Shown here piece after piece: positions 1 through 3,000 of a stretch of 64,000 nt of DNA (position 1 is its first letter; each line of letters opens with the position of its first letter). Location: NCBI RefSeq assembly GCF_053078305.1, contig NZ_CP166879.1; one strand, given 5' to 3'. The position numbers are program-made.

Positions 1-3000
1 TCATTTTCCGTGCTGTTTTCAGCCGGAGAACGACCAACCATTCGGGCCAGCACTTCATCAACATATGCGTCGATTTGTGCCTCAAAATCCTTGCGAACCT
101 GCGCCTTCAGCACGCGGTTCACTTCTTCAGAATAAAGTGCCTGTTTGACAAGCTCTTCAGTAACCGTGCCTTTAATCTCTGGCATGAATATTCTCCTTTC
201 CTTTTCTGGTTCACAAAAAATTAAATCTGACCGGAGTCTTTCGGCTGCGGCATTACAGCACCGCTTTTTATCTTTTCCTCGGCAGCTGCATCAATTTTAT
301 TTCGAAAATAATTGCGAATAATTTTATAACCACCGCTGACAAGCAACAGACAACAAACCACCGTGCAGAAATACAGCAGGCAGACGTTTATATATGTCAT
401 ATAAGCCTCACTCTTATTAACTGATGTTACAGCCGGATAAATTCCCGGCCGTCACGATTATGCCGCAGGGGTATTAACCTCAAGGACAACGCTCTCAAAA
501 GACACGCCATAAGTTGCCCCTTTGGTGACATCTGTCAGTGTCAGCGTATCTTTGGCAGGGGAAAGTGCATCTTTCACCATCTGGAATGCCTGGCCCGGAG
601 TGCCATCCAGCACAGGCGTTACCTGGGCACTTCCCGCAGTAAACTTCAGGACAAGTGTATGCCACTGGTTATTGTAGGCTCCAAATGATCCCAGTTTCGT
701 ATTCCCCCCTGTTTTATGGTGCATCAGATTTAACTGGCCGCCTGTTGTCTGGAGATAATACGCCATCAGGAACGGTGTGCCTGTACCACTCATGGTTACA
801 CCTTCCGGGACCGTATCGGTGTGGAGGTAAATACCCAGAGCAAACTGGCCTTCTTTTACTTCACCTGACAGACGGAATTTACAGGTCAACTGACCACCAT
901 GCTTCAGAAGTTCACCGGCTGCATCAGTTCCATGGGTAAGCGTCCAGGTTTTTCCGCTTTGTTTGGATACGGTCAACGCTTTACCTTCGTCCGTCAGCTG
1001 GATTGTACCATCTGTAATTTTCCATCCCTGAGCCGGGGCTTCCCCTGCTGATGCTTTAAGTGAAAGCAGCGTACGGAGTGACGGGGATGTCGGCTGGGGG
1101 GACTCACTGCTTCCTGGCTGACTACCTGTCGGAGCTTCCGGTTTTCCACCCGGCGCGGGCTGAGGCAGGGCTTCACCATCAGGGGCCACACCGGCAATAA
1201 ATGCAGAGGTCAGACCTGCATATTTAAGAATTGCTGATGCAAAACGATCTGAGACCAGAAAACGGCGCGCCCAGGAGCTAAAATGGGTTGCCCTGGATGC
1301 TGTTGTCCAGTTGCCATCTCCCCGTGATTCCGCACCATAATACCCGGCAGAAGCGATATCCGGGTCGTGCTCCGGCAGGTTGGTCGCGGTTTTATTACCG
1401 AACTCATCGTGCATCAGTGGAACAAAGTGAATGTTCTCGGAAGCCCGGTTTTTATATCCGCTATAAATGGTTTCATATGCCGCCGGGTTCTTCTCTTTCC
1501 AGTCATAGGTTGTGTCACCACATAACCACGGCACACTGTCTGATGAACCACCAATACACTGACCGGAGAAAGCACCAAGATCCGCACGGAATTTTTTCAC
1601 CATCGCAGTAAACTGGGCACCATGCTGGGCCGGGGTCGCTTTAAGGTCTCCTTCCCCCTGAATCCATACGACAGATAACAGCACATTCTTTGGATTCGCC
1701 TCAAGTGCCGCTTTCGTTCGACTGACAAGATCCTGATACAGTGGGGTATCCACTCCCCAGCGTAGTGACGCCTCGGCTGCACCACTTGCCGGATCGAATG
1801 AGCCAACTGCGCCGGTTGTAAAAGCAGAGCCGCCACGGGCACAGGGAACCAGTAAAATCCCGGCATCAGCAGGAATCACCGGTAATACTTTTTTCGCAAT
1901 ATGAAGTCCCTGACCCACACAACCATACTGCCCTTTTTTCAGGTCTGCTTTTGGATGGTTCAGCAGACTCATATTCTGAACATCATGAAGGCAGTGATCT
2001 GCTGGAATGATTTCATTGTATTTGCAGGGAATACCCCCGGGGGTTTGTGTATTCCTGCGTGCCAGCTGCATAATACGTGGATCAGGACGATCATAAGAAT
2101 CCGGCAGGGGCAACCCTTCACCATAAGATGAAGCATTGGACTGACCGGCTATAACAATCACGTAATACCAGGAAGGGGAGCTGGAAGCCGTTTCATTTCC
2201 TGCCGGACGGGTATGTGTGTCAGCATTATCCCAGTCTGACGGTTCAGCAGTACCGGCAACATCAGCACTTAACGGAATGACAGCACCAATACCCGCTCCG
2301 GTAATTTCCACGTTCGGATCACCGGATACTGGCCTTACCCACAGGCAATCCCGTGTATTAAAACTGATGAGACAGTCAGCAAATGTCATTCCTCCTTTCG
2401 TTTCAGCCGGAGGAAAGGGAGCCTCAAGAAATGCCGCTGTACCACCGGAAACTTTAACGGTAAAGTTTCCGGGCATTGATGATAGTTGAACCCATTTGGA
2501 CGTCATAATATTCATCCTGTTCCTGAATAAACAGAATTATCATATCCACAGACCGATAAACGCCATTTTGCGTTAATTCAGTAAAGGCCCAACAAAGGGA
2601 GCGTCTTATTTTTCCGAAATGCTCGCAGGATAATAACGATAAAGGGTTGAAAGGCCGATATCAAAAATAAGTGCCACCTGTCTTCGGCTGACACCCCCGG
2701 CCAGTAAACGCCCGACCTGCTCGTATTGTTCCTGCGTGAGACGACGGGGTCTGCCGCCGGTTCGTCCCCTTTCACGGGCAGCTGCAAGACCAGCCCGTGT
2801 CCGTTCGACAATCAATTCACGCTCCATTTCTGCCAGCGCACCCATTATGTGAAAAAAGAAGCGCCCCATGGGGGTTGACGTATCAATGTTGTCAGTAAGA
2901 CTACGAAAATGTAAGCGTAAACTGACCGCCGTATGTAGCCATTAAGCCAGTATTGGTAACGTAGGTGCCCACCTTTTCAACTAGTGGACACCTGTTATGG

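What the first reader, a model, noticed from the sequence alone, without database searches (positions are those of the whole stretch)
1..2605. Prophage right boundary not resolved in the window
The left end is in ftnB at 39256, but no ftnB 5' fragment or inverted copy of the left-end repeats occurs anywhere in 1-2605. A TG at 2524 followed by CGATAAACGC loosely resembles a Mu R-end site but lacks the TCACCT repeats. Either the prophage extends past the window start (over 39 kb with the IS), or the right end has been joined to unrelated DNA by rearrangement.
Basis: inference. Interest (0 to 1): 0.35.

Follow-up and report, generated by a model that had tools for sequence, protein, structure and literature searches.

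The report
Mu-like prophage right end, off-window
The first 2.6 kb of the window are ordinary internal DNA of a 41-kb Mu-like (Sp18-type) prophage; its true right end lies 1.7 kb before the window start, where it is joined to the gene yegH instead of the missing half of ftnB, which means either a phage-made chromosomal inversion or a mis-joined draft assembly.

Summary
Window 1-2605 contains no ftnB 5' piece and no prophage end. It holds the 3' end of gin, a sialate-O-acetylesterase-like gene (SASA+DUF6645), DUF1378 and the start of a DUF826 gene. This block is internal to Sp18-type Mu-like prophages in 37 complete E. coli genomes. I found the source contig (E. coli strain 48, JPQG01000003.1) and read upstream of the window. 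After DUF826 come com and mom, then the right terminus (TATAGCGCGG...) at window coordinate -1698. The prophage is 40,955 bp including a 2.5-kb IS66-family element inside gin. The right end abuts yegH codon 207, followed by asmA, dcd and udk, not ftnB. In K-12 the two flanks lie 151 kb apart; here they face each other in opposite orientation. The flanking 4-mers differ (CGAA and CCAG), whereas 7 of 7 simple insertions in finished genomes carry matching 4-bp repeats. This is the signature of a Mu-type inversion, or of two identical copies mis-joined in a draft. A second contig repeats the left junction exactly, and I could not find the reciprocal junctions. The mechanism is classical, so interest is low to moderate.

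The parts
1..185 (-). 5' part of the DUF826 gene. The window start cuts it; the whole gene is 246 nt.
   Evidence: Pfam PF05696, E=3e-15, on the full ORF read from the source contig. Annotated as DUF826 in relatives.
221..400 (-). DUF1378 small membrane protein gene (59 aa).
   Evidence: Pfam PF07125, E=9e-24.
458..2515 (-). Intact 685-aa esterase-like gene with SASA (sialate O-acetylesterase) and DUF6645 domains. It is a distant paralogue of the NanS-p genes of Stx phages and is accessory cargo in the right arm of the prophage.
   Evidence: Pfam PF03629 E=1.6e-13 and PF20350 E=8e-26. 99% identical to the copy in 2014C-3307. About 67% nt identity to yjhS/nanS-p genes of Stx phages.
2516..2605 (.). 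Spacer between gin and the esterase gene. CGATAAACGC'. It is not a phage end.
   Evidence: Contiguous with both sides at 98.7-99.5% identity in prophages at unrelated chromosomal sites.
2606..2910 (-). 3' part of the gin-type serine invertase gene.
   Evidence: Resolvase/HTH_7 family. Aligns to intact gin of L003 up to position 2910.
2911..5443 (+). IS66-family insertion sequence with three ORFs (2997-3422, 3419-3769, 3800-5413). It splits gin.
   Evidence: Pfam HTH_Tnp_1, TnpB_IS66 and DDE_Tnp_IS66. Ends are GTAAGCG...CGCTTAC. A direct repeat (T)ACGAAAAT lies at 2902-2910 and 5441-5449.
5444..5705 (-). 5' part of gin. The called product (101 aa) runs on into the IS end.
5768..7152 (.). Invertible tail-fibre (G-like) segment bounded by 181-nt inverted repeats. 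Its orientation is opposite to that in 2014C-3307.
   Evidence: Inverted repeat I1. L003 6468-7401 aligns to window 6701-5768 in reverse.
7153..38034 (-). Mu-like late, middle and early genes: baseplate, tape measure, sheath, head, lysis, Mor, GemA, Gam, MuB-like ATPase and the DDE transposase (35944-38034).
   Evidence: Collinear with the 38.7-kb prophage of 2014C-3307 at 92-97% identity.
38475..39005 (+). Repressor-position gene (176 aa), next to the left end.
   Evidence: Called gene. The same protein sits next to the left end at 10 other insertion sites.
39085..39256 (-). Left end of the prophage. Read inwards the terminus is 5'-TGTAACCAGGTGAATCATTTGATACC. It has three TTTGATAC sites and four TCACCT/AGGTGA sites. 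The last phage base is 39256.
39257..39626 (+). 3' part of ftnB, starting with the flanking 4-mer CCAG (ftnB nt 135-138).
   Evidence: Comparison with intact ftnB.

Best explanation
Window 1-2605 is internal right-arm DNA of an Sp18-type transposable (Mu-like) prophage.

Gene order. On the minus strand the order is: tail fibres, gin (split by an IS66-family element), SASA/DUF6645 esterase, DUF1378, DUF826, and then, beyond the window start, com, mom and the right terminus. That terminus is at window coordinate -1698 (JPQG01000003.1 position 1,171,263). The element is 40,955 bp long. These points are shown directly.

Flanks. The right terminus is joined to yegH at codon 207, followed by asmA, dcd, udk and yegE. 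The left terminus is joined to ftnB nt 135. The two host flanks are in opposite relative orientation, and their 4-bp flanks do not match. This is also shown directly.

Inferred mechanism. The phage first sat in ftnB. Its transposase then joined its ends to a target in yegH on the same chromosome. An intramolecular replicative transposition of this kind inverts the roughly 151-kb ftnB-yegH interval. It leaves a prophage with one old junction (left end-ftnB 3') and one new junction (right end-yegH 3'). RecA recombination between two inverted copies would give the same product. A reciprocal copy or junction (ftnB 5' ... yegH 5') should exist elsewhere in the genome.
For: - Source contig. Window 1-15705 is an exact reverse complement of L002.
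- Relatives. Window 1-2900 is 99% identical and contiguous in 37 genomes, annotated DUF826 / DUF1378 / DUF6645 / recombinase. In those genomes com, mom and then the end follow.
- Right terminus. In the 60 records listed, right-arm homology stops at about the same base (query position 390-406, 406 in most) whatever the flanking gene. Nine independent sites read TATAGCGCGG... and fifteen left junctions read ...GGTTACA.
- Terminus in the source contig. It lies at L002 17404, followed by TTCGTCATTCC..., which is yegH from nt 619. asmA, dcd, udk and yegE lie beyond it.
- Orientation. ftnB and yegH are both on the plus strand in K-12 and 151 kb apart. In the contig yegH 3' is on the minus strand and ftnB 3' on the plus strand.
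- Target repeats. Seven of 7 simple insertions have identical 4-bp repeats. This element has CGAA and CCAG.
- Completeness. The prophage is full length and collinear with a 38.7-kb relative.
- Activity of the family. Sp18 is intact, spontaneously inducible and packaged (PMC2669165), and is listed as capable of transposition (PMC7430833). Insertion sites are scattered across the chromosome.
Against: - The reciprocal junctions were not found. The right-arm genes I tested (mom, esterase, tail fibre, gin::IS fusion) are on record only once in the assembly. A second copy with a right end is therefore not assembled.
- The assembly is a draft. It contains a second contig (JPQG01000010.1) that repeats the left junction and 9.3 kb of the phage at 100% identity. 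That is unexpected for a clean single-copy locus and shows the assembler had trouble here.
- No RefSeq complete E. coli genome shares either junction, so there is no independent confirmation.
Confidence: 0.55

Rival explanations
1. Assembly chimera. Strain 48 carries two identical copies of the prophage in opposite orientation, one a simple insertion in ftnB and one a simple insertion in yegH. The draft assembler threaded contig 3 into one copy and out of the other. Both junctions would then be real but would belong to different copies, and there would be no inversion.
For: - The repeat is 41 kb, probably longer than the sequencing reads could span. I could not establish the platform or read lengths.
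- The assembly is a draft with a redundant contig that enters the prophage from the ftnB side and would stop inside it.
- Several finished genomes have 3 places for a query spanning the left end and ftnB. That is consistent with two left ends in one chromosome, but I did not inspect those places.
Against: - Two full copies predict a second right end (mom, esterase) and a yegH 5'-left-end junction. Neither is on record in the assembly.
- The transposase gene is on record only on contigs 3 and 10, and both have the ftnB flank.
- A second simple insertion in the same chromosome is not the usual product of intramolecular Mu-type transposition, which gives inversions or deletions. This rests on established Mu genetics, not on a test here.
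Confidence: 0.3
2. Single-copy rearrangement. Only one prophage copy exists. An inversion or another rearrangement has one breakpoint exactly at the phage right terminus and the other in yegH. It could arise from an aberrant, one-ended or unreplicated strand transfer, or from a two-copy inversion followed by loss of the second copy. ftnB 5' and yegH 5' would then be joined directly or deleted.
For: - The assembly holds only one right arm and only one kind of left junction.
- The right junction lies exactly at the terminus used in 9 other insertions.
Against: - I know of no standard Mu pathway that gives this product in one step.
- It does not explain the redundant contig 10.
- Neither ftnB 5' nor yegH 5' could be located.
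Confidence: 0.12
3. The right end was lost or truncated inside the window, with 1-2605 being foreign (for example lambdoid) DNA joined to a broken prophage near gin. This is the literal reading of the first reader's second alternative.
For: DUF826, DUF1378 and a NanS-p-like esterase are typical of the late region of Stx phages. G+C content drops to 48-53% here, against 55-60% in the phage core.
Against: - The same block sits between gin and com-mom in 37 genomes with full-length prophages at unrelated sites.
- In the source contig it is followed by com, mom and an intact terminus.
- Identity to Stx-phage versions is only about 67%, against 99% to Mu-like prophage versions.
Confidence: 0.01

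Closest known systems
Sp18, the Mu-like prophage of E. coli O157:H7 Sakai, and its relatives such as Phi804-3 of FRIK804
   Same: - Similar size: 38.76 and 39.18 kb, against 38.4 kb here without the IS.
- Mu-type organisation: repressor, transposase and MuB-like ATPase at the left; Mor, lysis, head and tail genes; an invertible tail-fibre segment with gin; com-mom at the right end.
- Strain-specific, scattered insertion sites (PMC7430833, PMC2669165).
   Different: - The O157-type hits match the right arm only up to just past DUF826 and do not extend into DUF1378. The variant here carries the SASA/DUF6645 esterase and DUF1378 between gin and DUF826. I did not inspect Sp18 itself.
- Here gin is split by an IS66-family element.
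- Here the two ends sit in different genes.
Bacteriophage Mu (prototype)
   Same: Transposable temperate phage. It has a 5'-TG left terminus, transposase-binding-type repeats near both ends, the Gin/G segment, Com/Mom, Mor, Gam, MuB C-terminal domain and Mu-type head and baseplate families (Pfam labels).
   Different: - The target duplication is 4 bp in 7 of 7 insertions, not 5.
- The right terminus ends ...CTATA-3', not CA-3'.
- phmmer does not find MuA among PDB chains at E<=0.001; only retroviral integrase cores are hit.
- The nearest phage transposases outside the family are those of Pseudomonas transposable phages (H70, JBD23 and others) at about 30% identity.
Mu-mediated chromosomal inversions (classical Mu genetics: intramolecular replicative transposition gives an inverted segment bounded by two oppositely oriented Mu copies). 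Recalled from the literature, not read here.
   Same: One end keeps the old flank (ftnB) and the other carries a new flank (yegH). The flanks are in inverted relative orientation and the target repeats do not match.
   Different: The second copy and the reciprocal junctions, which define the classical product, were not found in the draft assembly.
NanS-p 9-O-acetyl-sialate esterases with the DUF1378 and DUF826 genes of Stx-converting lambdoid phages
   Same: The same three-gene module in the same order. The esterase has a SASA domain with a GQSN motif.
   Different: Only about 67% nt identity. The module sits in a Mu-like prophage between gin and com-mom, not downstream of stx. Esterase activity was not tested.

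Membership tests
Mu-like (Sp18-type) transposable prophage | DDE transposase plus MuB-type ATPase next to a repressor at one end | tested here: met
   Window 35944-38034 (PF09299 Mu-transpos_C), 34940-35872 (PF09077 Phage-MuB_C) and repressor-position gene 38475-39005.
Mu-like (Sp18-type) transposable prophage | Insertion at many unrelated chromosomal sites, with no att site and no tyrosine integrase | tested here: met
   Fifteen different left flanks and 9 different right flanks. Flanking genes differ.
Mu-like (Sp18-type) transposable prophage | Defined termini with repeated transposase-site-like motifs at both ends | tested here: met
   TTTGATACC at nt 18-26 from both termini; three sites at each end.
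Mu-like (Sp18-type) transposable prophage | Short target-site duplication flanking one element (5 bp in Mu) | tested here: not met
   For this copy the flanks are CGAA and CCAG, so there is no duplication. In 7 of 7 relatives the duplication is present but is 4 bp rather than 5.
Mu-like (Sp18-type) transposable prophage | Right arm ending in gin, then com-mom, then the terminus | tested here: met
   Com (PF10122, E=2e-12) and Mom (PF25680, E=1e-76) lie upstream of the window in the source contig, and the terminus is 128 bp after mom.
Mu-like (Sp18-type) transposable prophage | Mu-type head, tail and baseplate genes, collinear with a full-length relative | tested here: met
   Collinear alignment from -1698 to 39259 with the 38,739-bp prophage of 2014C-3307. 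Pfam Gp37, Gp41, Gp45, Gp46 and Gp48.
Mu-type replicative inversion product | Two ends of one copy in different genes, with flanks inverted relative to the ancestral order | tested here: met
   Right end in yegH 3' (minus strand) and left end in ftnB 3' (plus strand). Both genes are on the plus strand in K-12.
Mu-type replicative inversion product | A second, oppositely oriented copy carrying the reciprocal junctions (ftnB 5'-right end, left end-yegH 5') with the reciprocal 4-mers | tested here: inconclusive
   Not on record in the draft. Truncated genes carry no protein record in this annotation, so the junction look-ups could not have found them.
IS66 family insertion sequence (element in gin) | Three ORFs (HTH TnpA, TnpB, DDE TnpC), GTAAGCG-type inverted ends and an 8-bp duplication | tested here: met
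   Pfam PF01527, PF05717 and PF03050. Ends GTAAGCG at 2911 and CGCTTAC at 5437-5443. ACGAAAAT is repeated at 2903-2910 and 5442-5449.
NanS-p-type sialate O-acetylesterase | SASA/SGNH-type esterase domain, with 9-O-acetyl-sialate esterase activity | tested here: inconclusive
   The domain is present (PF03629, E=1.6e-13, above the curated cut-off) and Stx-phage yjhS/nanS-p genes are homologous at about 67% nt identity. Activity cannot be tested here.

The most novel reading that the evidence does not exclude
Two readings are not excluded.

(a) Strain 48 preserves a natural, fixed product of Mu-type intramolecular transposition: a roughly 151-kb inversion of the fli-his-rfb-wca region, made by an Sp18-type prophage in a wild STEC isolate.

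(b) The Sp18-type family differs from Mu in its transposition chemistry. It makes a 4-bp rather than 5-bp target stagger, has a TA-3' right terminus, and its transposase is closer to those of Pseudomonas transposable phages such as H70 and JBD23 than to MuA. I found no report of this in the papers I could search.
Probability: 0.4. Interest if true: 0.4.

Novelty: new member of a known kind. Interest (0 to 1): 0.3.

Why it matters
For annotation, the prophage should be drawn as 40,955 bp, from 1,699 bp upstream of the window start to 39256. The esterase/DUF1378/DUF826 block belongs to it and is not a lambdoid remnant. For genome biology, the discordant flanks say that a transposable prophage has either reshaped a 151-kb stretch of an STEC chromosome (flagellar, his, O-antigen and colanic-acid loci) or fooled a draft assembly. 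Either way, synteny-based comparisons that use this contig should be treated with care. The consistent 4-bp duplication gives a simple test for separating simple insertions of this phage family from rearranged ones.

Tried and rejected
- Predicted junction proteins for the reciprocal junctions. YegH(1-206)+FVVTR was not on record. YegH(1-206)+FV matched only partial genes at the ends of short-read and metagenome contigs that continue as intact yegH, which is an artefact. FtnB(1-46)+V was not on record. This assembly's annotation gives no protein for truncated genes (neither yegH 3' nor ftnB 3' is called in L002/L023), so this route could not work.
- Look-ups with AsmA and with the repressor were swamped by thousands of genomes carrying the same alleles.
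- The 'hidden similar place' in the first Mom look-up disappeared when the look-up was repeated. It was probably an index duplicate, not a second copy.
- No RefSeq complete E. coli genome carries the ftnB-left-end junction or the right-end-yegH junction.
- Searches for a paper describing the strain 48 assembly, Mu-like-prophage inversions in STEC, or a 4-bp duplication for Mu-like phages gave nothing useful.
- I rejected the TG at 2524 as an end, the idea that 1-2605 is a lambdoid fragment, and a 5-bp duplication in any register (4 of 7 cases fail every 5-bp register).

Full report
**What is in 1-2605.**
All genes here are on the minus strand:
- the last 264 nt of a gin-type invertase ORF (2606-2869; the gene fragment runs to 2910);
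- a 90-bp spacer;
- an intact 685-aa ORF (458-2515);
- a 59-aa ORF (221-400);
- the first 185 nt of an ORF cut by the window start.

Pfam assigns the long ORF to SASA (sialate O-acetylesterase) plus DUF6645. It assigns the small ones to DUF1378 and DUF826. Megablast of 1-2900 against 5,426 complete E. coli genomes finds the whole stretch, contiguous and at least 99% identical, in 29 records. Thirty-seven genomes have at least 80% coverage. The annotation is always DUF826 / DUF1378 / DUF6645 / recombinase.

**The region is internal to a Mu-like prophage.**
I read full prophages in four finished genomes: STEC2017-197, 2014C-3307, UTAK-15 and FORC_028. The order in all four is: tail fibres, gin, DUF6645, DUF1378, DUF826, a frameshifted ORF, com, mom, then host DNA.

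I used the right arm of STEC2017-197 as a query. In the 60 records listed, homology stops at about the same base (query position 390-406, 406 in most) whatever the neighbouring host gene. So in this family the right terminus lies about 1.7 kb beyond the point where the window begins.

Stx-phage nanS-p/yjhS genes are only about 67% identical at the nucleotide level. The block is therefore family-specific cargo of the Mu-like phage and not a piece of a lambdoid prophage.

**Finding the source and reading upstream.**
The chimeric 101-aa product of the gin 5' part running into the IS is on record on a single contig: JPQG01000003.1 (1.42 Mb) of GCA_000736735.1. A paper names JPQG00000000 as the genome of E. 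coli 48 and uses it as the reference for the subAB2-3 operon (PMC5323612).

Window 1-15705 is the exact reverse complement of that locus. Window position 1 is therefore contig position 1,172,962.

Upstream of the window lie the rest of DUF826, then Com (PF10122) and Mom (PF25680). The sequence ...GGTATCAAAAAAATCGCCGCGCTATA follows, and host DNA follows that. The terminus is at window coordinate -1698. The element is 40,955 bp. That is about 38.4 kb without the IS, compared with 38.7-39.1 kb in relatives and 38,759 bp for Sp18 (PMC7430833). It is collinear with the 2014C-3307 prophage from end to end. The only differences are the IS and a flipped tail-fibre segment.

**Defining the ends.**
- Fifteen independent left junctions read ...GGTTACA followed by variable sequence.
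- Nine independent right junctions read variable sequence followed by TATAGCGCGG....
- Both termini carry TTTGATACC at nt 18-26, and further TTTGATAC sites lie inside each end.
Their absence from 1-2605 was never informative.
- In seven finished genomes where I read both junctions, the element is flanked by a perfect 4-bp direct repeat: CGCC, TATA, TGAC, ATCA, TCCA, CTAC, TGCT.
- No 5-bp register fits more than three of the seven. One case was checked against an intact araG target.

**The unexpected part.**
The DNA next to the right terminus is not ftnB. It is yegH from nt 619, 99% identical to yegH of other strains, with 1 of 322 residues different from the best match. It is followed by asmA, dcd, udk and yegE in the normal order.

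The left terminus (39256) abuts ftnB from nt 135. The rest of the window is consistent with the K-12 order clockwise from ftnB, judged from ORF sizes, strands and the three tRNA genes: yecJ ... tyrP, yecA, the tRNAs, uvrC, fliC, yedE.

In K-12 both genes are on the plus strand, and the two sites are 151.5 kb apart. In the contig yegH 3' points away from the prophage on the opposite strand. The two flanks are therefore inverted relative to each other. The flanking 4-mers are CGAA and CCAG. This copy is not a simple insertion.

**Most likely mechanism (inferred).**
A transposable prophage in ftnB whose ends are transferred to a target in yegH on the same chromosome gives, after replication, an inversion of the interval. 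The interval is bounded by two oppositely oriented copies, and each copy carries one old and one new junction. Recombination between two inverted copies gives the same product. The copy in the window has exactly that pattern. Sp18-type prophages are known to be intact, spontaneously induced and packaged (PMC2669165). They occupy strain-specific sites (PMC7430833).

**What weakens it.**
- I could not find the reciprocal junctions.
- Mom, the esterase allele, the tail-fibre allele and the gin::IS fusion are each on record only once in the assembly.
- The transposase allele is on record twice. The second place, on contig JPQG01000010.1 (105.9 kb), has the same ftnB-side flank and is 100% identical to window 29944-44034.
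- By arithmetic that contig would end inside the prophage near window 22.6 kb. A redundant contig that enters the repeat from one side shows that the assembler did not resolve this region cleanly.

The contig-3 join could therefore be a mis-thread through two identical copies. Against that, two full copies should have left a second right end in the assembly, and none is there. A single-copy rearrangement also fits the counts but has no simple mechanism. I put about 0.55 on a real phage-made inversion, 0.30 on an assembly chimera and 0.12 on a single-copy rearrangement. No RefSeq complete genome shares either junction.

**Verdict on the finding.**
- The first alternative (the prophage continues past the window start) is correct.
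- The second alternative (the right end joined to unrelated DNA) is also true of the deposited sequence. The join lies outside the window at an intact terminus, not within 1-2605.
- The suggested R-end-like site at 2524 is an ordinary intergenic spacer.

The biology is a new instance of a classical phenomenon, or an assembly problem, so interest is low to moderate. The 4-bp duplication and the TA-3' right terminus are the only features that depart from textbook Mu.

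Noticed in passing
window 39253-39260; right junctions in L001, L003, L006, L026, L054-L056 and matching left junctions in L025, L003, L006, L026, L050, L049, L044: Sp18-type Mu-like prophages are flanked by a 4-bp, not 5-bp, target duplication in 7 of 7 simple insertions. Their right terminus ends ...CTATA-3' instead of the canonical CA-3'. The left terminus is the canonical 5'-TG. I found no report of this in the searchable literature.
   Followed up: partly
window 2911-5443: A 2.5-kb IS66-family element is inserted in gin. The tail-fibre inversion switch of this copy should therefore be locked unless another invertase acts in trans. Among the assemblies indexed, the gin::IS fusion product is on record only in strain 48.
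   Followed up: partly
window 5768-7152: The invertible tail-fibre segment is bounded by 181-nt inverted repeats (75% complementary). It is in the opposite orientation to that of the 2014C-3307 prophage.
   Followed up: partly
window 1-2515 and L002 15521-15766: A NanS-p-like esterase / DUF1378 / DUF826 module, typical of the region downstream of stx in lambdoid phages, is carried between gin and com-mom by one variant of the Mu-like prophage (about 40 complete genomes). In the O157-type prophages listed the match ends just past DUF826 and does not extend into DUF1378.
   Followed up: partly
L023 (JPQG01000010.1 84449-98539), equal to window 29944-44034: The draft assembly contains a second contig that repeats 4.8 kb of the ftnB-side flank and 9.3 kb of the prophage left arm at 100% identity. 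The reason is unknown: a redundant contig, a collapsed repeat or a real duplication.
   Followed up: partly
window 35944-38034: The transposase has a Mu-transpos_C domain, but phmmer does not find MuA among PDB chains; only retroviral integrase cores are hit (E about 1e-4). The nearest phage homologues outside the family are Pseudomonas transposable phages (H70, JBD23 and others) at about 30% identity. The early region is therefore not close to Mu itself.
   Followed up: partly
L007-L012 (yegH codon 208): Many short-read and metagenome contigs (48 index blocks) end within 1-3 nt of the exact yegH position where this prophage end sits, yet they continue as intact yegH. This is probably a recurrent assembly break point and a coincidence.
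   Followed up: no
L003 22023-22102, corresponding to window about 21720-21800: RefSeq annotation places a 'tRNA-OTHER' feature inside relatives of this prophage, between the virion-morphogenesis and head-morphogenesis genes. ARAGORN finds no tRNA at the corresponding place in the window; it finds only leuZ, cysT and glyW at 44013-44314.
   Followed up: partly
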